A stretch of DNA of 64,000 bases from Minisyncoccota bacterium (GCA_017991395.1 JAGOQQ010000002.1:61925-125924); one strand, 5' to 3'; shown: positions 22,924-37,042, counted from the first letter of the stretch. A program made the numbers and translations. The notes: a model not told the origin generated them from the sequence alone.

Positions 22924-22997
22924 CCGTCCTTAGCTCAGTTGGTTAGAGCACAGAGCTTATACCTCTGGGGTCCATGGTTCGAATCCATGAGGACGGA
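22924..22997 (+). tRNA. tRNA-Ile with anticodon UAU (reads AUA)
   Basis: Manual cloverleaf: acceptor CCGTCCT/AGGACGG, D GCTC/GAGC, anticodon stem CAGAG/CTCTG with loop CTTATAC (anticodon TAT), T-arm CATGG-TTCGAAT-CCATG, discriminator A. No encoded CCA. Confidence 0.75.
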
Positions 22998-23046
22998 CAA
23001 ACATAAGAAGCGACACCGTCAGGCGTCGCTTTTTATGTTTGTCCGT
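22984..23046 (+). repeat. ~62 bp direct repeat (tRNA-Ile 3' end plus terminator hairpin); second copy at 23200..23262
   Basis: atccatgaggacggacaaacataagaagcgacaccgtcaggcgtcgctttttatgtttgtccg appears twice about 216 bp apart. Confidence 0.8.
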
Positions 23047-29872: not shown

Positions 29873-30090
29873 AAGTATGATTATATCATATAAAAATGAT
29901 CACTTTTTTCTTTGCGGAACCGGCGAGATTCGAAACTTACAGTTTCAGTACACCTTTTCGATTTGTTTGGAGAAATCTCCTCACAAACAACGAAAAGCTC
30001 TTCGAATCTCTCTCGGAAGTACCGCAGGGTACTTCCTCGTCTCCGCGAACAAAAATGGTCCGGAATGATTCCGGACTCATTTTTTGTAAT

Positions 30091-30293
30091 CGCGGTGTGT
30101 ATTGAACGAAGTTCGAATGTATTTTGAATTGAATCCTGACGACCAATGATGCGCGCCTCGGACACGCTCGCGGACTCGCGTGTGCAAAAACCAAAAAATT
30201 TCCTTGCATTTTTCTCGCGTCTCCTCCCCCCACCCCTCCGCCGCGAAGCGGAAAAAGAAATGGAAAGGAAATTTTTGGTTTTGCTTCGCCGTT
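30091..30293. repeat. inverted repeat arm A (~203 bp) with an internal long palindrome (aaaccaaaaaatttccttgcatttttc...gaaaaagaaatggaaaggaaatttttggttt around a GC-rich core)
   Basis: Reverse complement of 32270..32474. ORF-track translations on opposite strands are identical over about 65 aa (AKQNQKFPFHFFFRFAAEGWGEETREKCKEIFWFLHTRVRERVRGAHHWSSGFNSKYIRTSFNTHR). Confidence 0.85.
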
Positions 30294-30573
30294 TCAGTCT
30301 CCGAAAAGAGCAATCTTATTTTAACATTTTTGTTTGCTCTTTTCTCCACCCTCACGGCGACCGAGGCGCTTCCTCTCCGCGTTTGGTGGTGACTCTAAAC
30401 TCCGTGGCTTCGACGGAGAAAGTGCCAACTCATCAAAGTGGAGCCTCGCCATACAAAATTCTTTAAGGAATGGCGAGGCGCAAATCCTATTATGTGTTTG
30501 CCCCACCCTCCCGTGCGCACACATCATCCCCGCCGTTTTGGGAGAATATTATAAAACGGCGGGGATGGCTCCC

Positions 30574-31317
30574 TTATTTAAAATTCATAGTCCACTTATC
30601 TTTACCTTCCCAACCATCAAACATTTTTCCATGTCCCATTTCTCGGCTCAGTTTTTCAATACCAGAAAGTAAATCTTGTTGAGTTTTAAGGTCTGCTGTT
30701 TCTAAAATATGTTTTATTTTTTCTACAAATTCTTTGGGCGACCAAGGCAAATTTTCCAAAGGATACTTTTCTAGTTCTTTTTGAACATAACCGAGAAATG
30801 GTCTATGCCTGCCATTCATGGCAAATACGAGTGTAAGTAAATCAAGCATGGAGTTTACTGCCTCCAAATGAGCACCAAACATATTATTATTGCGAATACA
30901 TTTTACAGAGCGATATACACCATTTACATACCCGTCAATCCACCAATCAATAAATTTATTCAATTTATCTGGCGGTATTTGACCTTTTTCCTTAACCAGT
31001 TTTTCCAATTCTCCGTCTGTCCTGTCTACAAGAATTTTGACATGAGCGTAATTATATCTGTCCCATGATTCTGGGCTTTCCCAGCCAGCAAATGTTTTGA
31101 AATCAGAGAAAGAACGCACTGACAAATCCACATTATCTAAAGTCATCTTTTCGTATTTTTCGTGGATTGTGTTAGCGGCTTCGTCTTTAATAATCATTAC
31201 AGCATCATAATCGGAATGTTCATTTTCAAAACCCTTGCCACGCGAACCAACAAGAATGAAGCCGACAACGTCCTCGTTTTCTTGTGCCTCTTTAAGTATT
31301 TTTTCGTAGTCGTTCAT
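30574..31317 (-). CDS. ANT(6)/AadK-like minimal nucleotidyltransferase (putative aminoglycoside adenylyltransferase-family protein)
   Basis: N-terminal NTase motif VGFILVGSRGKGFENEHSDYDAVMII (GS...DxD) and a helical C-terminal domain. The layout resembles the ANT(6) N-terminal motif (GSRANINIPKDEFQDYDITYFV in ANT(6)-Ia) as recalled from memory. Confidence 0.5.
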   Translation of the reverse strand: MNDYEKILKEAQENEDVVGFILVGSRGKGFENEHSDYDAVMIIKDEAANTIHEKYEKMTLDNVDLSVRSFSDFKTFAGWESPESWDRYNYAHVKILVDRTDGELEKLVKEKGQIPPDKLNKFIDWWIDGYVNGVYRSVKCIRNNNMFGAHLEAVNSMLDLLTLVFAMNGRHRPFLGYVQKELEKYPLENLPWSPKEFVEKIKHILETADLKTQQDLLSGIEKLSREMGHGKMFDGWEGKDKWTMNFK

Positions 31318-31321
31318 AGAT

Positions 31322-31981
31322 TTATTTTAACATTTTATTAGCTAATAATAATTTTTGAATAAGTTCCGAAATATTTTTATGGACAGGCCAAATTTTTTGT
31401 ATTTCGGCACGCATATCTTGATGTTGAAGGTATCCCTCATCTCGTTTTCCATTCATTAGATCGGAAAACTCAAGATTCAAAAGTTCCGTCAAAGATTCTT
31501 TGATGTCGTTATACGCCAATTTTGAAAGTCCCTCGTCTAGCAACTTTTTACCGAAAGTGTGCCATGTGTAGAAATGTAAAAGTTCGTGCATTATCGTGTT
31601 GTTGGAAAATTCCGAGCCGATTCTGACGAAAAAATAGTTTTGCTCGATGTTGTAGGTACAACGCTCGTTGTGGGTCAAATAAACAGTAATAATCGGGGCT
31701 GGGTAAGAAATGCCGAATAACTTTTCCACTCGCTCAATGAAAATGGGTTCGGCAATTTTCCATCTTGCCTCTACAGCAACAATTTCCTTGTTAGCGTCGA
31801 AACCACTTATTTTGTCTTGTTCCCCAATAAACGCCTTGACCTTTTCCGTTTCAAAATTTTCGCCGTATTTTTCGGAAAACGAAATTTGAAACTTTGTTGG
31901 TTTCTTACTATTCGTCGCGTTCGTTCCCTTGATAAAGTTTTCAACGTCCTTATCTATATTGTATGCAAAATGTAATTTCAT
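31322..31981 (-). CDS. HExxH-motif protein (putative ImmA/IrrE-like zinc metallopeptidase), function unknown
   Basis: IMHELLHFYTWH contains HExxH. It is co-oriented and adjacent to an XRE-family HTH gene, as in ImmR/ImmA modules. Confidence 0.35.
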   Translation of the reverse strand: MKLHFAYNIDKDVENFIKGTNATNSKKPTKFQISFSEKYGENFETEKVKAFIGEQDKISGFDANKEIVAVEARWKIAEPIFIERVEKLFGISYPAPIITVYLTHNERCTYNIEQNYFFVRIGSEFSNNTIMHELLHFYTWHTFGKKLLDEGLSKLAYNDIKESLTELLNLEFSDLMNGKRDEGYLQHQDMRAEIQKIWPVHKNISELIQKLLLANKMLK

Positions 31982-31985
31982 AAAT

Positions 31986-32198
31986 TTATTTCAAAAGTTC
32001 ATCACTTGCAACTCCTAACGCTTGAGCGATTTTCTCAATGGTTGCGAGTGTTGGATTTCCTTTTCCACTCTCAATATTGCTCATTTGAGCGCGATCAAAA
32101 CCGAGAGCACGACAAATGTCGCCTTGCGACATTTTCTTTCGCTCTCGTATGCGCTTTATGTTTCTTCCCAACTTAATTGACGATGTTTTCATATCCAC
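31986..32198 (-). CDS. XRE-family helix-turn-helix transcriptional regulator (70 aa)
   Basis: LGRNIKRIRERKKMSQGDICRALGFDRAQMSNIESGKGNPTLATIEKIAQALG is a canonical HTH_XRE. Confidence 0.75.
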   Translation of the reverse strand: MDMKTSSIKLGRNIKRIRERKKMSQGDICRALGFDRAQMSNIESGKGNPTLATIEKIAQALGVASDELLK

Positions 32199-32269
32199 AG
32201 TTTATATTCTAGCAGTTTGTTGTGTCTTATATCAATAATGTGATATATTACAATAGATGAGAATGTTGA

Positions 32270-32474
32270 TAACGGCGAAGCAAAACCAAAAATTTCCTTT
32301 CCATTTCTTTTTCCGCTTCGCGGCGGAGGGGTGGGGGGAGGAGACGCGAGAAAAATGCAAGGAAATTTTTTGGTTTTTGCACACGCGAGTCCGCGAGCGT
32401 GTCCGAGGCGCGCATCATTGGTCGTCAGGATTCAATTCAAAATACATTCGAACTTCGTTCAATACACACCGCCA
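32270..32474. repeat. inverted repeat arm B (reverse complement of 30091..30293), directly fused to 32471..32587
   Basis: Sequence identity, plus shared ORF-track peptides on opposite strands. Confidence 0.85.
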
Positions 32475-32587
32475 GAAAACGAAATCGGATTTTAGAGCCG
32501 AAATGGGGTCGCGCCGAAGGCGCGACACTAGGGCATTCCCCCCGCCGAATCCAGAATCCAAAAGGGTTTTCCACGCTCCGCGTGGCT
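32471..32587. repeat. second inverted repeat: reverse complement of 33994..34110, which abuts the tRNA-Ser 3' end
   Basis: Peptide RKRNRILEPKWGRAEGATLGHSPRRIQNPKGFSTLRVA is encoded on opposite strands at both loci. Confidence 0.85.
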
Positions 32588-32609
32588 CGTCGTTTGCCAA
32601 TACAATTCT

Positions 32610-34160
32610 ATGAATAATCAAACCAAAAAGTTTTTCATATATACTCGCAAGTCTACGGACGACAAAGACAGACAAGTCCGCAGTATTTCCGACCAGTTGA
32701 GTGAGTTAAAAGAGTTAGCGCTGAAAGAGCAACTGGAAGTGATGGATGTCTTTGTCGAAAAGCAGACCGCCAAAATACCAGGTCGTCCCGTGTTTAATGA
32801 AATGATGACGAGAATGGAAGCGGGCGAAGCGTCTGGTATTTTGGCGTGGCATCCCGATAGACTTGCTCGCAACTCGGTAGATGGAGGAAAAATCATCTAC
32901 CTCGTTGATACTGGAGTAATTTCAGAAATGAAATTCCCAACTTTTTGGTTTGATCCGACACCGCAAGGCAAATTCATGCTCTCAATCGCTTTTTCGCAAT
33001 CCAAGTATTATGTGGACAATTTGAGTGAAAATATCAAGCGCGGACATAGAAACAAAGTGAAGGAAGGGATATGGCCTCAAATGTCTCCGATTGGATATGT
33101 GAACGAGAAAGGAAAAGGTATTGTGCCACATCCTGAACTTTCGATTTTAGTAAAAAAGACATTTGAGGCATATGCAACTGGAAACTTCACTTTGCGGGAA
33201 GTCCGCGACAAATTTAACGCGCTTGGATTGAAAAGAAAAAGCGGTAGAGAGCTTGCGGTGTCGAATTATCAAAAACTTCTCAAAAATCCTATTTACACTG
33301 GTCTCATGAGGTATAACGGAGAGATTTTTGAGGGAAAGCACGAACCGATTATTTCAAAGAAACTTTTTGATTCTGTTCAAGAAGTGATGAGTCGAAAATC
33401 TAAACCTCATTCCAAAGGTTTGAAACCATATATTTATCGGGGATTTTTCCGTTGCGGAGAATGTGGATGTTTTATAACTACCGAGCAACAAAAAGGTCAT
33501 AACTATTTGCGATGTACCAAACGGAAAAATCCTTGTGAGCAAAAATATGTTCGTGAGGAGCTCATCACTTCTCAAATTCAAGAGGAAATCAAAAAAGTTT
33601 CTTTGCCTCTCGATTGGACAGAATGGATGATTGCCGAAAATGCAAAGGATCGGCAATCGGAAGTCCAATCAAGTGAGATTTTTTCTCAAAAAATACAAAG
33701 TAAAATTTCTCTTTTGGATGCAAAAATGGAGAAGCTGATGTCTGCGTATTTGGAAAGTGCATTTTCGCTTGAAGAATATCGTGATGCTAAAAGTGCCATG
33801 GTTAACTCAAAACAGCTTCTCAAAGAGAAATTATCAGCTTTTGAGAAAAAATCTCATAATCGGTTCGAACTTACCGAAAAGTTTTTGAAATACAATATGG
33901 AATTGGCAAACGACCGAACAAATGAGGAAAATACTCATTTGTTCAAAAAAGTCGGTTCGAACTTTCAAATTAAGGATCGAACCGTACTTTTTGAGCCACG
34001 CGGAGCGTGGAAAACCCTTTTGGATTCTGGATTCGGCGGGGGGAATGCCCTAGTGTCGCGCCTTCGGCGCGACCCCATTTCGGCTCTAAAATCCGATTTC
34101 GTTTTCTGGCGGAGACGGAGAGATTCGAACTCTCGAGGCCATTACAGCCTGCCTCCTTAG
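32610..34160 (+). CDS. large serine recombinase (resolvase/invertase N-terminal catalytic domain, recombinase domain, zinc ribbon, coiled-coil). The annotated 3' end runs through the repeat and tRNA-Ser, so the true stop may be earlier or the C-terminus repeat-derived
   Basis: FFIYTRKSTDDKDRQVRSISDQ (catalytic Ser in YTRKS), GILAWHPDRLARN, recombinase-domain residues, and a Cys cluster RCGECGCF...CTKRKNPC. Confidence 0.8.
   Translation: MNNQTKKFFIYTRKSTDDKDRQVRSISDQLSELKELALKEQLEVMDVFVEKQTAKIPGRPVFNEMMTRMEAGEASGILAWHPDRLARNSVDGGKIIYLVDTGVISEMKFPTFWFDPTPQGKFMLSIAFSQSKYYVDNLSENIKRGHRNKVKEGIWPQMSPIGYVNEKGKGIVPHPELSILVKKTFEAYATGNFTLREVRDKFNALGLKRKSGRELAVSNYQKLLKNPIYTGLMRYNGEIFEGKHEPIISKKLFDSVQEVMSRKSKPHSKGLKPYIYRGFFRCGECGCFITTEQQKGHNYLRCTKRKNPCEQKYVREELITSQIQEEIKKVSLPLDWTEWMIAENAKDRQSEVQSSEIFSQKIQSKISLLDAKMEKLMSAYLESAFSLEEYRDAKSAMVNSKQLLKEKLSAFEKKSHNRFELTEKFLKYNMELANDRTNEENTHLFKKVGSNFQIKDRTVLFEPRGAWKTLLDSGFGGGNALVSRLRRDPISALKSDFVFWRRRRDSNSRGHYSLPP
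33994..34110. repeat. inverted repeat arm C (partner of 32471..32587), ending at the tRNA-Ser CCA end
   Basis: See 32471..32587. Confidence 0.85.
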
Positions 34161-34195
34161 CAAGGAGGTACGTTAGACCACTCCGACACGTCTCC
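34107..34195 (-). tRNA. tRNA-Ser (anticodon GCU), class II with a long variable arm and encoded CCA
   Basis: Reverse complement GGAGACGTGTCGGAGTGGTCTAACGTACCTCCTTGCTAAGGAGGCAGGCTGTAATGGCCTCGAGAGTTCGAATCTCTCCGTCTCCGCCA. Anticodon stem CCTCC/GGAGG with loop TTGCTAA, T-arm AGAGA-TTCGAAT-CTCT, discriminator G. Confidence 0.85.
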
Positions 34196-34299: not shown

Positions 34300-34386
34300 G
34301 GAGGATTGGATGAGTGGTTTAAATCAACGGTTTACTAAACCGTCGTTCCTTAATTGGAACCGTGAGTTCGAATCTCACATCCTCCG
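34300..34386 (+). tRNA. class-II (Ser-like, G73) tRNA with anticodon loop UUACUAA, i.e. an apparent ACU anticodon; possibly aberrant or a pseudo-tRNA
   Basis: Acceptor GGAGGAT/ATCCTCC (7 bp). 3-bp D stem GAT/ATC. Anticodon stem ACGGT/ACCGT. Variable-arm hairpin GTTCC-ttaatt-GGAAC. T-arm GTGAG-TTCGAAT-CTCAC. Discriminator G. Confidence 0.55.
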
Positions 34387-34388
34387 CA

Positions 34389-34426
34389 AAAAAACCAAAC
34401 TCAGATTATCTGAGTTTGGTTTTTAA
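34389..34426 (+). terminator. intrinsic terminator (aaaccaaactcaga-ttat-ctgagtttggttttt)
   Basis: Perfect 14-bp stem followed by a T-run. Confidence 0.7.
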
Positions 34427-34509
34427 AATTTTGACAAAAAAATAATTTTATTGACTTATTGCGTAAACGTTTCGCTTCAGAAGAACACGTTGACTCGTAG
34501 TTTGTCAAA

Positions 34510-35076
34510 TTGGTACTATTAAATTCTATGATTACAACAATGCCTTATGACGTTCCATTGTATTCTCAAATAAGTGATATTTCATCCGTTGCATGGCAAC
34601 AAAAAGGATGTGGTGTGGCTGATGTGGCAATGATTGTAGAATTCTACAAGCCAAATACTACGACCGTACAAAAAGTTCTCGAAACAGCACTTGCGCAAGG
34701 CGCATATCAAAAAAATGTTGGGTGGAAACATGCGGGTCTTGCGGCACTTGCTTCAAAATACGGTCTCGTCGGAAAGACAGTGGATTTTTCTACGTATTCA
34801 AATGATTCAGCATTGAAAAATTTCAAAAAAGAAGTAGATGCGGGTCCGGTAGTGGCTTCAATTCGTCGCGGATTCAATCCAAAAAGTCCATATGGACACC
34901 TCGTGGTGATCACTGGATATGATGACAAAGTCGTGTACTACAACGATCCGGGAAAAAGAGACGGAAAAAAGTCCGTACTAATTGCAGATTTCATGAAAGG
35001 CTGGAAAAAAAGATTGATTGTTATACGTCCACCTGCAGAGAAAAAGGAAATTGTAAAAGTGACTTACTCGTACTAA
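34510..35076 (+). CDS. peptidase C39-like (papain-fold) domain protein
   Basis: VPLYSQ...GCGVADVAMIVEFY...GHLVVITGYDD gives the Cys/His layout of Peptidase_C39_2-like domains. Confidence 0.55.
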   Translation: MVLLNSMITTMPYDVPLYSQISDISSVAWQQKGCGVADVAMIVEFYKPNTTTVQKVLETALAQGAYQKNVGWKHAGLAALASKYGLVGKTVDFSTYSNDSALKNFKKEVDAGPVVASIRRGFNPKSPYGHLVVITGYDDKVVYYNDPGKRDGKKSVLIADFMKGWKKRLIVIRPPAEKKEIVKVTYSY

Positions 35077-35092
35077 TTTTAGCTTTCTAGAT

Positions 35093-36976
35093 TTAAGGTG
35101 TTTGTGTGCCCACTAAGCATACTTTTTGCCATGGTCTATAGACACTGTGAAAGTTTTTATCTTTCTTTGTTCCGTCTTTGTACAAGATAGAATACAACAC
35201 ATCGGTGGTGATGCCATCATGAGGACTCTCTATGCATTTGGTTTGTCCAATTTTCAAATCTGGTGTTGGTATGTATTTTGCTGGAGGTGCAGGAATTTTG
35301 TTGTATATTTTTGGTTCTGAAATTGTGACCGTGCGACCATCGCTATGACCATAGAGTTCCATTATTACTTCAGTACCTTCTACTCGTGCTTGAAGTAAGA
35401 GATAGCCCTCTGTGTCATTTGTAAATCGAAAATCAGGATGTGGACCATATATTGTGGCATCAAGTCCTGGCGGATCATAATAGTGAACGACAAATTTGTG
35501 ATTCATTCTCTCTGTTATGGGAAGTCCCGCATCAAGCGCAACACGAAAAAGAGTTGTGGCGATTTGGCACAATCCACCACCAAATTCCTTTGCGGTGGTG
35601 TTTTCTTTGATCACTGTTTCTTTTACGTAGCCTTCTTTTTCAGTCACCGCACCAATCGATTTGACTGTTGAAAATTCTCCACCAGGTGGAATAAGCATTC
35701 CATTTATTGCTCCTGCTCCTATTGTTATGTTGTGTGCACGATCAGCACTACTACCTTTGAAGCTTGTGCGCACTTCGCCAACAAGGTCATTGATATAATA
35801 TTTTTCTACTGTTTCTTTCGTGACACGTGGCTCAATTTCGATTGTTTCCACAGGAATAGAAAACGTACTACTTTTTGCATCATATGTCGCGGTGGTATCT
35901 TTTGTGTAGGTTTGTGAGTCTGGTGATTCTGGATTTACCAAATAACTTATTTGAATTTCATTAAATATTTTTTCTAAATCATTTCGTACTTTTTCAGCAT
36001 TTACTGCCTGACCACTTTTCCCCTTGGATATCTCTACAAGTTCACCTTCGATCATTTGGAACCTACTGTTTTTTCTTGGGTTGTTTATGTATTTAGCGAC
36101 TGTACCATTCATGTATCTATCGAATATACTCGGATCAATGCTTATGAGACGCTGTTCGTTTAATGTCAGCCACTCTACAAATTTTGGACTCGTCACTTTC
36201 CATTTTTGACCTTTGTAGGTGAATACCACATTCATTTTTTTAGCAATATGTTCTGCGAGTCCTCGAAATTGCTCAAGGTCTGATTTGACCACAGAAGGAA
36301 TGTCATCATACACAGAATGCTCACTGGGTGAAATGTCGAGAGTGGCTATTTTTGTTTCAAGAGATTTTAGTACCTCATCCATATGGACACTCTTTCCATT
36401 TTTTTCTTGTGTGATCGAAAGTGTATTATTTGAAAACGTGAATTGAGCAGGAATTTTTTCCTCAACAAATGGCAACATTTCATGATTGATGAGTGATGTG
36501 ATTGCGTCGTGTTGGATGCTGTTTGCGAAAGTGAAATATTTTTTTCTAAAAAGGAGTGATATTTTGTGCGCACTATTTTTAATCAAAGAAGGTGATCGTC
36601 CGTACATGAATGCTTCGTTGACGGTGCGTTGCCAGTCTGCAATCGTGAGATATTCGACGGATGTATCAGAAGTGAGTCCTGTATAAGAAACAGGAATTGT
36701 GATCTTGCGCTCTTCCTCGCCCATGTCGAAATATACAGAAAGCCCATCTGCTTCAAGAGAGGCAATTCGTTCGCTAAAAATAGTTGCGACTTCAGCCTCT
36801 GTGAGTCCGCCTGCGTATACATTACCGACATAAATGCCCGGGTAGAAGCGATCTTTGTACTTTATTTGGAGAACTATAAGTGAAATGATTCCGGCAAGTA
36901 GGCACACCGCAAGAAAAACACCTACTTTGAAATAAGATTTTTTTCTAAAGTATTCCAATGTGGAATGCTTTATCAT
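35093..36976 (-). CDS. VanW-family protein (N-terminal TM anchor)
   Basis: GGGLCQIATTLFRVALDAGLPITERMNHKFVVHYYDPPGLDATIY matches the VanW core. Confidence 0.7.
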   Translation of the reverse strand: MIKHSTLEYFRKKSYFKVGVFLAVCLLAGIISLIVLQIKYKDRFYPGIYVGNVYAGGLTEAEVATIFSERIASLEADGLSVYFDMGEEERKITIPVSYTGLTSDTSVEYLTIADWQRTVNEAFMYGRSPSLIKNSAHKISLLFRKKYFTFANSIQHDAITSLINHEMLPFVEEKIPAQFTFSNNTLSITQEKNGKSVHMDEVLKSLETKIATLDISPSEHSVYDDIPSVVKSDLEQFRGLAEHIAKKMNVVFTYKGQKWKVTSPKFVEWLTLNEQRLISIDPSIFDRYMNGTVAKYINNPRKNSRFQMIEGELVEISKGKSGQAVNAEKVRNDLEKIFNEIQISYLVNPESPDSQTYTKDTTATYDAKSSTFSIPVETIEIEPRVTKETVEKYYINDLVGEVRTSFKGSSADRAHNITIGAGAINGMLIPPGGEFSTVKSIGAVTEKEGYVKETVIKENTTAKEFGGGLCQIATTLFRVALDAGLPITERMNHKFVVHYYDPPGLDATIYGPHPDFRFTNDTEGYLLLQARVEGTEVIMELYGHSDGRTVTISEPKIYNKIPAPPAKYIPTPDLKIGQTKCIESPHDGITTDVLYSILYKDGTKKDKNFHSVYRPWQKVCLVGTQTP

Positions 36977-37042
36977 CTATTAAGTATATGCCTATATTAG
37001 CAAGACTGCTAATTGGCAACTATACGCAAGAGGGAATACGAC

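What the first reader, a model, noticed from the sequence alone, without database searches (positions are those of the whole stretch)
30091..34110. Nested inverted repeats with long internal palindromes: candidate recombinase-driven invertible segments
Three repeat copies are arranged as A (30091-30293), B (32270-32474 fused to 32471-32587) and C (33994-34110). B is the reverse complement of A, joined directly to the reverse complement of C. A and B bracket the three-gene cassette NTase-HExxH-XRE (30574-32198), all on the minus strand. B and C bracket the serine recombinase gene. Each ~200-bp A/B arm also contains a ~30-bp-arm palindrome around a GC-rich core (aaaccaaaaaatttccttgcatttttc...gaaaaagaaatggaaaggaaatttttggttt), which looks like a recombinase crossover site. 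This layout would permit serine-recombinase-mediated inversion of the cargo cassette and/or of the recombinase gene itself. That would be a shufflon or invertible-promoter type switch, not just simple att sites. The hybrid structure of B (half A, half C) is what a past recombination between sites would leave behind.
Basis: seen in the sequence. Interest (0 to 1): 0.7.

Follow-up and report, generated by a model that had tools for sequence, protein, structure and literature searches.

The report
Serine-recombinase element inserted at tRNA-Ser
The nested inverted repeats are the attachment sites of a 4-kb mobile element that a large serine recombinase inserted at the end of a tRNA-Ser gene; its unusual build (identical inverted arms around each of two modules, plus an intact copy of its own attachment site in the middle) recurs across ultra-small CPR bacteria, often with anti-phage cargo.

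Summary
The repeats are real and exact. A (30092-30293) is the reverse complement of B1 (32271-32472), 202 bp at 100%. B2 (32469-32588) is the reverse complement of C (33993-34112), 120 bp at 100%. B1 and B2 overlap by 4 bp (CCGC).

A 96.6%-identical relative (L106) has an empty site: flank-GCGG-tRNA-Ser(GCT). So 30096-34112 is a 4,017-bp insertion. A is attL, C is attR, and reverse-complemented B is an intact internal attP (gamma-GCGG-alpha).

The same layout recurs in about 100 related CPR/Patescibacteria loci. Every tRNA called at the C junction is tRNA-Ser (45 of 45). Cargo is variable, mostly defence genes. A TTCGAA motif lies 5 bp further from the core in the element arm than in the tRNA, as expected for attP versus attB of large serine recombinases.

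The palindrome inside A/B is not the crossover site. Orientation is strongly biased: rec points toward the tRNA in all 65-69 resolvable genome loci. A minority of relatives have the recombinase module inverted (L116, L118 and six others).

No description was found in the searched literature.

The parts
30052..30091 (.). Host flank x: hairpin terminator of the native tRNA-Ser locus, ending ...TTGTAATC next to the core (left half of attB)
   Evidence: Terminator-like on both strands. Identical sequence is joined directly to the tRNA in the empty site L106.
30092..30095 (+). Core GCGG of attL (site A)
   Evidence: 4-bp overlap of the two alignment blocks in the empty site. Shared by A, B and C.
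30092..30293 (+). Arm alpha (site A = attL: x-GCGG-alpha). P'-type half-site with GTTCGAA at +16 to +22 from the core (30111-30117).
   Evidence: 100% reverse complement of 32271-32472. Consensus over 47 loci. 5-bp offset relative to the tRNA half-site.
30187..30282 (.). Imperfect palindrome with GC-rich core inside alpha (second copy at 32282-32377). Not the crossover site.
   Evidence: Its core is inverted between family members.
30294..32270 (-). Cargo module K: NTase 30574-31317, HExxH protein 31322-31981, XRE/C-protein-like regulator 31986-32198, promoter-like site 32235-32206, terminator hairpins 30440-30564
   Evidence: Pfam, PADLOC and NCBIfam. Promoter scan. Cargo differs between loci.
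32271..32472 (-). Arm alpha' (left half of internal site B)
32469..32472 (-). Core CCGC of the internal, inverted, intact attP (reverse-complemented B = gamma-GCGG-alpha)
   Evidence: Same junction in all canonical loci.
32469..32588 (-). Arm gamma' (right half of site B). It ends 21 nt before the recombinase start codon.
   Evidence: 100% reverse complement of 33993-34112.
32610..34160 (+). Large serine recombinase ORF (516 aa). The conserved protein ends at about residue 470. The rest is read-through of gamma and of the tRNA antisense strand.
   Evidence: Pfam Resolvase + Recombinase + Zn_ribbon_recom. Tails in homologues.
33948..33964 (+). Invariant 17-mer AAAGTCGGTTCGAACTT inside rec, exactly 144 nt before the core
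   Evidence: Present in 79 of 81 sequences despite 77-93% protein identity.
33993..34112 (+). Arm gamma (site C = attR: gamma-GCGG-tRNA). Contains hairpins 33996-34010 and 34055-34073 (c(UUCG)g loop).
   Evidence: Compensatory changes in the second hairpin.
34109..34112 (+). Core GCGG of attR = nucleotides C71-C72-G73-C74 of tRNA-Ser read on the opposite strand
34107..34195 (-). tRNA-Ser(GCT), the integration target. The gene stays intact, and its CCA end and trailer now come from the element.
   Evidence: ARAGORN and Rfam. 45 of 45 tRNAs called at this junction in relatives are tRNA-Ser.

Best explanation
Positions 30096-34112 are an integrated 4,017-bp mobile element of a widespread CPR/Patescibacteria family.

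Its large serine recombinase (LSR) recombines an element site, gamma-GCGG-alpha (attP), with the 3' end of a tRNA-Ser gene (attB = downstream flank-GCGG-acceptor end, at nucleotides 71-74). This leaves attL (site A: flank-GCGG-alpha) and attR (site C: gamma-GCGG-tRNA) and keeps the tRNA intact. That much is shown by sequence comparison.

The element has two modules, each with identical inverted ends. The cargo module K is bounded by alpha/alpha'. The recombinase module R is bounded by gamma'/gamma. Where they meet (site B) there is a complete, inverted copy of attP.

Because each module has identical ends, either module can be inverted without altering any junction. The gamma arms supply the last codons and a terminator-like hairpin of rec in either orientation.

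Inferred: the canonical state (rec convergent with the tRNA, cargo divergent from rec) is the stable, low-expression form. Rare inversion of R, either by the LSR at the cores or by homologous recombination between the arms, places rec downstream of and co-directional with the tRNA gene. The internal attP can occasionally react with a second tRNA-Ser gene. The arms are kept identical by gene conversion or are renewed during transposition.
For: - Empty site: L106 is 96.6% identical up to 30095 and then continues at 34109, with a 4-bp GCGG overlap and both tRNA-Ser genes present. L107, at 97% identity, has the same site occupied by an element with a different alpha allele.
- The four sites form a complete attB/attL/attR/attP set.
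- The enzyme has Resolvase, Recombinase and Zn-ribbon domains.
- Family-wide recurrence: a 120-bp inverted repeat brackets rec in nearly all of 80 genome loci. A roughly 200-bp repeat pair abuts it, with 4-11 bp overlap, in about 25 loci.
- Junctions read gamma-GCGG|tRNA, gamma-GCGG|alpha and variable flank-GCGG|alpha.
- Every tRNA called at the C junction is tRNA-Ser: 45 of 45, across five anticodons.
- The TTCGAA motif sits 5 bp further from the core in alpha than in the tRNA. This repeats in a sister element (42% identical LSR) at tRNA-Ala. It matches the published attP/attB rule for LSRs (PMC11722253).
- Cargo is variable and mostly defence genes.
- Tandem arrays carry gamma-GCGG-alpha joints (L097, L067).
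- Recombinase modules lie between two tRNA-Ser genes in L017, L018 and L066.
- Inverted-R isomers: L116 has tRNA-Ser→core-gamma'-rec→gamma-core-alpha. Seven loci have rec→gamma-core-alpha-XRE→cargo→. About 12% of 120 homologues carry the alpha-encoded tail.
- The gamma hairpin shows compensatory changes.
Against: - No excised circle and no alternative orientation of this particular copy was found. Reads were not available.
- A conventional LSR element does not need an internal attP. An active one should cause harmful rearrangements with the other tRNA-Ser genes, so its benefit is unexplained.
- Only one arm pair (alpha versus tRNA) shows the P/B relation. The other pair (gamma versus the host flank) does not, because the flank is not conserved.
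- No recombination directionality factor is recognisable.
- If a circle carried two equal attP sites, half of the insertions should have both modules inverted, and none was seen.
- Tandem arrays imply recombination of attP with an attL- or attR-type site, which classical LSRs avoid.
- The crossover dinucleotide is not resolved.
- The regulatory meaning of the two orientations is inference only.
Confidence: 0.78

Rival explanations
1. One reading: the locus is primarily a phase-variation device (a double inverton or shufflon). The serine recombinase flips the cargo cassette and its own gene at high frequency, and the repeats are inversion sites and not attachment sites.
For: - Both modules are bracketed by perfect inverted repeats, with the recombinase encoded inside one of them.
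- Inverted isomers of the recombinase module exist in relatives, and L014 has inverted cargo.
- Many assemblies break at the arms.
Against: - The empty site proves insertion.
- Arm C always ends at a tRNA-Ser gene.
- Orientation is heavily biased: 0 of 65-69 flipped among genome loci, and cargo is divergent from rec in 18 of 21.
- All metagenome hits with the upstream side resolved were tandem arrays.
- The enzyme is a large serine recombinase, not a Hin-type invertase.
- Contig breaks at repeats longer than the k-mer are expected without any flipping.
Confidence: 0.1
2. Two separate mobile units that merely sit side by side. One is an autonomous IS-like unit (gamma'-rec-gamma). The other is a non-autonomous cassette (alpha-cargo-alpha') that parasitises the same recombinase. 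Each moves on its own, and site B is just their joint.
For: - Recombinase units occur without cargo: L017, L018 and L066 between two tRNAs, L101 almost cargo-less, and L117 with alpha stubs only.
- Cargo is exchanged freely between otherwise similar elements.
- Gamma alleles at B and C differ in about 7 of 61 loci.
Against: - By the observed joint rule (gamma or flank on the left of GCGG, alpha or tRNA on the right), neither unit alone can fill a single attB. No flank-GCGG-gamma' or alpha'-tRNA joint was seen in about 100 loci.
- No solo cargo unit was found, although whole genomes could not be searched.
Confidence: 0.1
3. The long arms have no function. A short inverted duplication of attP arose once, was expanded and kept identical by gene conversion (as in plastid inverted repeats), and hitch-hikes with a successful element.
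For: - Arms are about 100% identical within a locus but 75-98% identical between loci, which requires homogenisation.
- The arm boundaries stop at functional sequence: the rec ribosome-binding region and the conserved end of the protein.
Against: - The design is conserved in sister families whose recombinases are only 40-42% identical and have other tRNA targets.
- The arms contain conserved hairpins with compensatory changes.
- An internal active attP should be costly and would be lost if useless.
Confidence: 0.08
4. Assembly artefact: a collapsed or chimeric repeat, or a fold-back chimera.
For: The repeats are perfect, and the 120-bp repeat is close to common maximum k-mer sizes.
Against: - The same architecture appears in 80 independent assemblies from many projects and assemblers, including closed chromosomes (OY969413.1, OZ246398.1).
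- Arm sequences differ between loci but are paired within each locus.
- Independent Logan unitigs reproduce the inner boundaries.
Confidence: 0.01

Closest known systems
Large serine integrases of phages and integrative elements (Listeria A118/LI integrase, SPbeta SprA, phiC31, Bxb1)
   Same: - Same three-domain enzyme.
- Recombination between an element site and a host site that share only a very short core.
- The outer recognition motif lies about 5 bp further from the centre in attP than in attB.
   Different: - Only remote sequence similarity (E about 1e-6 to SPbeta and A118 chains; far below the NCBIfam cut-offs for CcrB and XisF).
- The target is the extreme 3' end of tRNA-Ser, with just one conserved half-site.
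- The integrated element keeps an intact inverted attP.
- The recombinase gene is bracketed by 120-bp inverted arms that it reads through.
- No recognisable directionality factor.
- No phage or conjugation genes, and absent from IMG/VR.
Genomic islands integrated in tRNA genes, including cargo-shuttling elements such as tycheposons (bioRxiv 10.1101/2020.12.28.424599, seen but not read; the comparison rests on my own knowledge)
   Same: - Site-specific insertion at a tRNA 3' end with the tRNA kept functional.
- Variable cargo rich in defence genes.
- Tandem arrays.
- Presence/absence polymorphism between close strains.
   Different: - Classical islands use tyrosine integrases and duplicate 15-50 bp or more of the tRNA as direct repeats.
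- Here only 4 bp are shared, the enzyme is an LSR, the element is only about 3.5-9 kb, and it has the nested inverted-arm design.
Hin/Gin/Cin/Pin serine invertase switches (the hin gene lies inside its invertible segment; my own knowledge; PinQ paper PMC12529663 listed)
   Same: - A serine recombinase gene inside a segment bracketed by inverted repeats.
- Both orientations occur among relatives.
   Different: - Those enzymes are small, with a C-terminal HTH, 26-bp sites and a Fis-dependent enhancer, and the loci are not mobile.
- Here the enzyme is an LSR, the crossover cores sit at the outer tips of 120- and 200-bp arms and double as att sites, and one orientation dominates.
Yeast 2-micron plasmid (my own knowledge)
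   Same: The predicted circular form would have two unique segments separated by a pair of long perfect inverted repeats, each holding the recombinase target, and so two isomers.
   Different: - Flp is a tyrosine recombinase and the plasmid replicates autonomously.
- Here there are no replication genes, no circle has been observed, and the resident form is integrated.
LSR-driven transposons and cassettes (Tn4451 TnpX, Tn5397 TndX, SCCmec CcrAB; my own knowledge, plus NCBIfam hits)
   Same: Small non-conjugative elements moved by an LSR through a circular intermediate and a 2-bp crossover.
   Different: No inverted-arm modules or internal joint copy are described for them. Their targets differ (GA dinucleotides, rlmH).

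Membership tests
Large serine recombinase (integrase-type) | N-terminal resolvase catalytic domain with a serine nucleophile | tested here: met
   PF00239 E = 2.3e-18 over residues 9-154. An ...YTRKS... motif with Ser15 is visible in the sequence. The catalytic role is inferred.
Large serine recombinase (integrase-type) | Recombinase domain (DBD1) followed by a zinc-ribbon domain (DBD2) | tested here: met
   PF07508 E = 2e-15 and PF13408 E = 1.1e-07. Weak matches to the A118 integrase C-terminal domain structures.
Large serine recombinase (integrase-type) | attP and attB share only a short core, and the DBD2 motif is about 5 bp closer to the centre in attB | tested here: met
   4-bp shared core. 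TTCGAA lies at +12 to +17 in the tRNA and +17 to +22 in alpha, and likewise in the tRNA-Ala sister family. The rule is stated in PMC11722253. This holds for one arm pair only; the other attB arm is not conserved.
Large serine recombinase (integrase-type) | 2-bp staggered crossover at a non-palindromic central dinucleotide | tested here: inconclusive
   Native tRNA-Ser genes already read CCGC, so the junctions do not locate the cut. CC (nucleotides 71-72) is the only non-palindromic choice shared with the tRNA-Ala family (inference).
Large serine recombinase (integrase-type) | Directionality controlled by the coiled-coil motif and a directionality factor | not testable with these tools
   No candidate factor was recognised in the cargo. 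This needs biochemistry.
Integrative element / genomic island in a tRNA gene | Precise presence/absence polymorphism: the empty target site exists in a close relative | tested here: met
   L106: flank-GCGG-tRNA-Ser(GCT) with 96.6% and 98.6% flanking identity.
Integrative element / genomic island in a tRNA gene | The target tRNA gene remains intact after insertion | tested here: met
   tRNA-Ser(GCT) is called by ARAGORN and by Rfam at 52 bits.
Integrative element / genomic island in a tRNA gene | Repeated independent insertion at the same kind of site | tested here: met
   45 of 45 called tRNAs at junction C are tRNA-Ser, with five anticodons, in many CPR lineages.
Integrative element / genomic island in a tRNA gene | An excised circular form with a joined attP | tested here: inconclusive
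   The joint sequence exists only as internal site B. The 518-aa product expected from a circle or an inverted form of this copy is not in the protein collection. No read data.
Serine invertase switch (Hin/Gin type) | Small recombinase with a C-terminal HTH acting on about 26-bp sites with an enhancer | tested here: not met
   The enzyme is a 516-aa LSR with a Zn-ribbon.
Serine invertase switch (Hin/Gin type) | Both orientations of the bracketed segment coexist | tested here: inconclusive
   Across the family, at least 8 loci have the recombinase module inverted against at least 65 canonical. Coexistence within one population could not be tested without reads.
Shufflon | Tyrosine recombinase (Rci) acting on many short repeats that shuffle alternative 3' exons of one gene | tested here: not met
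   There are only three sites, a serine recombinase, and no alternative exon set.
2-micron-type plasmid | Autonomous replication and partition functions | tested here: not met
   The cargo of this copy is an NTase, an HExxH protein and an XRE regulator. Cargo in relatives is defence or accessory genes.

The most novel reading that the evidence does not exclude
The perfect arms exist because the element is activated or travels as single-stranded DNA. In one strand, alpha pairs with alpha' and gamma' pairs with gamma. The strand then folds into a dumbbell whose 322-bp stem is a ready-made double-stranded attP plus promoter region, and the flanks are set aside.

That would let a 4-kb element with no transfer genes spread by natural transformation across the whole CPR radiation. 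Repair or fill-in of the stem would also re-homogenise the arms at every passage.

This would be a serine-recombinase counterpart of the folded single-stranded sites of CTX phage and integron cassettes.
Probability: 0.06. Interest if true: 0.9.

Novelty: new variant of a known kind. Interest (0 to 1): 0.66.

Why it matters
- **Hardly described mobile DNA in CPR.** CPR/Patescibacteria are a huge, poorly understood part of bacterial diversity, and their mobile DNA is hardly described. This element family is abundant (thousands of near-identical recombinases) and crosses class-level boundaries at 80-93% protein identity. It ferries restriction-modification, Thoeris-like, Fic and other defence cargo into tRNA-Ser genes.
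- **A design not described for serine integrases.** The two-module build with identical inverted ends and an internal intact attP raises testable questions. How is directionality controlled without a known factor? How are the arms kept identical? Does orientation relative to the tRNA promoter switch the recombinase on?
- **Possible practical value.** A compact LSR with a well-defined, conserved target (the tRNA-Ser acceptor end), sister enzymes for tRNA-Ala and tRNA-Glu, and many natural attP/attB variants could be useful for genome engineering.

Tried and rejected
- **Assembly artefact.** Rejected because the design recurs in 80 independent assemblies.
- **Palindrome as crossover site.** Rejected because the exchange point maps to the GCGG core, and the palindrome core itself is flipped between relatives.
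- **RNA gene in the arms.** No Rfam family matches at E up to 5 except the two tRNAs.
- **Phage origin.** The recombinase is absent from IMG/VR.
- **Exact-protein look-ups of rec and of TTG-start neighbours.** These found nothing. ATG-start neighbours worked.
- **Logan unitigs.** They break at the arm boundaries and give no orientation information.
- **Metagenome pattern for a flipped recombinase module.** It gave 15 hits. Those with the upstream side resolved were tandem arrays. Only cargo orientation and two further contigs revealed true inverted isomers.
- **Locating the crossover dinucleotide from junctions.** This failed because native tRNA-Ser genes already end in CCGC.
- **Exact look-up of the 518-aa alternative product of this copy.** Negative.
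- **Literature.** Four searches and one paper read found no description of this family.
- **Models worked through but not shown.** These were integration through site B, a circle with two equal attP sites, and dumbbell integration. Each predicts orientations or junctions that are rare or absent in the data.

Full report
**Observation.**
- A (30092-30293) and B1 (32271-32472) are exact reverse complements over 202 bp.
- B2 (32469-32588) and C (33993-34112) are exact reverse complements over 120 bp.
- B1 and B2 overlap by four bases, CCGC, which read GCGG at the outer ends of A and C.
- No other copy exists in the window.
- A and B1 enclose three minus-strand genes: a nucleotidyltransferase, an HExxH protein and an XRE regulator.
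- B2 and C enclose a 516-aa large serine recombinase (LSR) with Resolvase, Recombinase and zinc-ribbon domains.
- Two details were missed. The recombinase ORF runs through C. C also ends exactly at the 3' end of a tRNA-Ser(GCT) gene on the minus strand (34107-34195), with a second tRNA-Ser(ACT) 105 bp further on.

**What the three sites are.** Reverse-complemented B reads gamma-GCGG-alpha. A reads host flank-GCGG-alpha. C reads gamma-GCGG-tRNA. This predicts an ancestral site host flank-GCGG-tRNA.
- That site exists. Contig JAHZTE010020498.1 (L106), found through a flanking histidine-kinase gene, is 96.6% identical to the window up to 30095. It then continues at 34109 (98.6%) with a 4-bp overlap, and carries both tRNA-Ser genes.
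- So 30096-34112 is a 4,017-bp insertion. A is attL, C is attR, and B is an intact, inverted copy of the attP that a circular form would carry.
- A third strain (L107, 97% identical flank) has the same site occupied by an element with a different alpha allele. The site is therefore polymorphic in nature.

**A conserved family design.**
- The recombinase has more than 7,000 database relatives at E <= 1e-20. The best 120 are 80-100% identical and vary in length from 494 to 647 aa.
- Eighty loci from species-representative genomes, all CPR/Patescibacteria lineages or unclassified bins, were fetched.
- A roughly 120-bp inverted repeat brackets the recombinase gene in nearly all of them, mostly at 98-100% identity. 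Where enough upstream DNA is present, a roughly 200-bp inverted pair abuts it with 4-11 bp of overlap and encloses 1.5-5.4 kb.
- Junction sequences are uniform: gamma...T(T/G)GCGG followed by the antisense of a tRNA 3' end; the same gamma end followed by TGTNTATTGGACNAAGTTCGAA (alpha); and a variable flank followed by GCGG-alpha.
- All 45 tRNAs that ARAGORN calls at junction C are tRNA-Ser (GCT 16, GGA 14, TGA 10, CGA 4, ACT 1).
- The variable protein lengths arise because the ORF reads through gamma into whatever lies beyond. Only EPRGAWKxL at the start of gamma is conserved as protein.
- The family is absent from IMG/VR viral contigs.
- Four full-text searches and one Patescibacteria gene-exchange paper gave no description of it.

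**Recognition logic.**
- Over 47-49 loci, the alpha arm is strongly conserved next to the core (TGT.TaTTGgAC.AAGTTCGAAtg). The tRNA arm shows AGag.g.ggGATTCGaAC. The host flank on the other side is not conserved beyond the CA of CCA.
- The shared TTCGAA (the tRNA T-loop) lies at +12 to +17 in the tRNA and +17 to +22 in alpha.
- A second element in L019 has a recombinase only 42% identical and sits at tRNA-Ala. It has the same nested repeats (154 and 132 bp, 4-bp overlap, core GTGG) and the same offset: CGAACCC at +14 to +20 in the tRNA and +19 to +25 in the arm.
- Further sister units lie at tRNA-Glu and at a degenerate tRNA-Ser.
- A 5-bp (4 bp in SPbeta) inward shift of the zinc-ribbon-domain motif in attB relative to attP is the published hallmark that distinguishes the two site types of large serine integrases (PMC11722253). 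Alpha therefore behaves as a P-type half-site and the tRNA end as a B-type half-site.
- The crossover must lie within GCGG (tRNA nucleotides 71-74). Because native tRNA-Ser genes already end in CCGC even without an encoded CCA, the junctions cannot place it more precisely. CC (71-72) is the only non-palindromic dinucleotide shared with the tRNA-Ala family, which makes it the likeliest choice (inference).

**Cargo.** Between the alpha arms, relatives carry different genes:
- a Fic protein;
- a UvrD helicase with a GmrSD/HNH nuclease and an EcoRI-type methylase;
- an AAA_13 ATPase with DpnII and a Dam methylase;
- a ThsB-like TIR protein;
- an AAA_15 ATPase;
- a D-Ala-D-Ala ligase.

A 70-aa XRE protein resembling restriction-modification control proteins and CapH is often the first gene next to the arm that joins the recombinase module. 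In this window it has a good promoter-like site (TTGATA-18-TAGAAT, 32235-32206).

**Do the modules invert?**
- Among the 81 local sequences, an anchored pattern was used: an invariant 17-mer in rec, 144 nt, the core, then either tRNA-type or alpha-type sequence. It found 65-69 canonical cases and none with alpha downstream.
- Cargo genes point away from the recombinase gene in 18 of 21 loci.
- A scan of the metagenome collection for the alpha-downstream pattern gave 15 contigs. Those with resolved upstream sequence were tandem arrays or a cargo-less variant.
- However, 13-15 of 120 database homologues end in the alpha-encoded tail (...FWRCVLNEVRMYFELNPDDQ) instead of the tRNA-antisense tail.
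- Contig L116 shows tRNA-Ser(CGA) on the same strand, then the core, gamma', rec, gamma, the core and alpha.
- Seven contigs (L088, L089, L091, L095, L098, L100, L118) continue after rec-gamma-core-alpha with the XRE gene and cargo on the same strand as rec. A canonical tandem or a canonical circle would have the cargo on the opposite strand there.
- These contigs fit an isomer in which only the recombinase module is inverted. In every case the XRE-proximal alpha arm is the one joined to a gamma arm.
- So inversion has happened repeatedly in the family, but the canonical state predominates (roughly 90% or more).
- The predicted 518-aa product of an inverted or circular form of this window's copy is not in the 15-billion-protein collection.
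- Whether inversion is made by the recombinase at the cores or by homologous recombination between the perfect arms cannot be told from sequence, because both give the same product.

**Other rearrangements.**
- In L017, L018 and L066 the recombinase module lies between two convergent tRNA-Ser genes of different anticodon, with no cargo. In L034 a tRNA-Ser also precedes gamma'. This is what recombination of the internal attP with a second tRNA-Ser gene would leave.
- L117 has the module between two alpha stubs amid host genes.
- Tandem arrays carry gamma-GCGG-alpha joints (L097, L067).
- Every joint seen obeys one rule: gamma or host flank lies to the left of GCGG, and alpha or tRNA to the right. 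Under that rule neither module alone can fill one attB, but the pair can, in the order flank-K-R-tRNA that is observed.

**The arms.**
- Within a locus the arms are almost always identical, whereas alpha differs by up to 25% between loci. In 48 of 61 loci the two gamma copies are identical right up to the core, and about seven loci carry different alleles.
- So the copies are homogenised or renewed, apparently without frequent crossing-over.
- Gamma contains a hairpin with a constant TTCG loop. Three of its stem pairs are kept through changes on both sides in 12-15 of 47 sequences. In many members it is followed by a T-run.
- Both arms face outward. Whichever way the module lies, rec therefore receives the same last codons and the same terminator-like end, which suits an invertible gene.
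Its arms are conserved, but its GC-rich core is inverted between members, and other members have a different hairpin around a similar GGAGGGGTNTGGGGAGGA core. Its function is unknown, and Rfam has no match.

**Conclusion.** The finding is a real, precisely bounded integrated element of an undescribed but very common CPR family. The mechanism of insertion (an LSR acting on attP and the tRNA-Ser 3' end) is well supported by comparative sequence evidence. The nested inverted arms and the internal attP are a conserved design feature that allows module inversion, and occasionally secondary recombination with other tRNA-Ser genes. Their selective value is not established; candidates are regulation of the recombinase by orientation relative to the tRNA promoter, modular exchange of cargo, or a single-stranded folded intermediate.

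The enzyme is only remotely related to studied LSRs. I rate this a new variant of a known kind and of clear interest to mobile-element and CPR biologists.

Noticed in passing
window 33948-33964: The 17-mer AAAGTCGGTTCGAACTT inside the recombinase gene is invariant in 79 of 81 sequences despite 77-93% protein identity. It lies exactly 144 nt from the core and contains a T-loop-like GGTTCGAAC. This suggests a DNA-level constraint, possibly an accessory binding site.
   Followed up: partly
window 29907-29934 (minus) and 29990-30047 (plus): The host flank left of the element holds two tRNA 3'-end fragments. One resembles the 3' half of the same tRNA-Ser(GCT), is interrupted by a 22-nt hairpin, ends CCGC, and lies in the opposite orientation to the real gene. 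These may be relics of earlier recombination at this locus.
   Followed up: no
window 34300-34387 and 22924-22998: There is a tRNA-Ser with the unusual anticodon ACT and a tRNA-Ile with anticodon TAT. tRNA-Ser(ACT) recurs next to tRNA-Ser(GCT) in several relatives and is itself used as a target (L018, L058).
   Followed up: no
window 34388-37042 versus L106: To the right of the two tRNA-Ser genes, the C39-peptidase and VanW genes of the window are replaced in the empty-site strain L106 by about 1.2 kb of other small genes (DUF1801 and others). Similarity resumes at the Zn_ribbon_2 gene (37043). This is a second variable region next to the tRNA pair.
   Followed up: partly
window 30212-30257 and 32307-32352; L023, L031, L033, L041, L056, L058, L064: The GC-rich core of the alpha palindrome is inverted between family members while its arms stay put. 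Unrelated alpha variants carry a similar GGAGGGGTNTGGGGAGGA motif in a hairpin loop. The motif contains two Shine-Dalgarno-like GGAGG and could form a G-quadruplex.
   Followed up: partly
L019 7632-10994; L080 7713-9375; L009 4882-8276: Sister elements have recombinases only 40-42% identical but the same nested inverted-arm design. They are inserted at tRNA-Ala(GGC), tRNA-Glu(TTC) and a degenerate tRNA-Ser, sometimes directly beside a tRNA-Ser element.
   Followed up: partly
L107 (JGI 3300043411 Ga0451708_0023518), last 120 nt: A 97%-identical strain has the same tRNA-Ser(GCT) site occupied by an element with a different alpha allele. This points to independent insertion or replacement at one site within a species-level population.
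   Followed up: partly
tRNA genes in L001-L080: Many tRNA genes in these CPR genomes encode discriminator-C-A (for example GCACA) and not a full CCA. Insertion of the element supplies tRNA-Ser with an encoded CCA in many loci.
   Followed up: no
L117 9787-11575 (JGI Ga0163152_10000023): A recombinase module is flanked on both sides by 75-nt alpha stubs, giving a 195-bp inverted repeat. It is embedded among ordinary host genes with no tRNA nearby. No simple model explains this arrangement.
   Followed up: no
window 32113-32131 region of B (alpha') and 32571-32585 (gamma'): Alpha and gamma each contain a CACGC...GCGTG hairpin. The two are mutually complementary in the single-strand fold of site B. 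They could be paired binding sites for a regulator.
   Followed up: no
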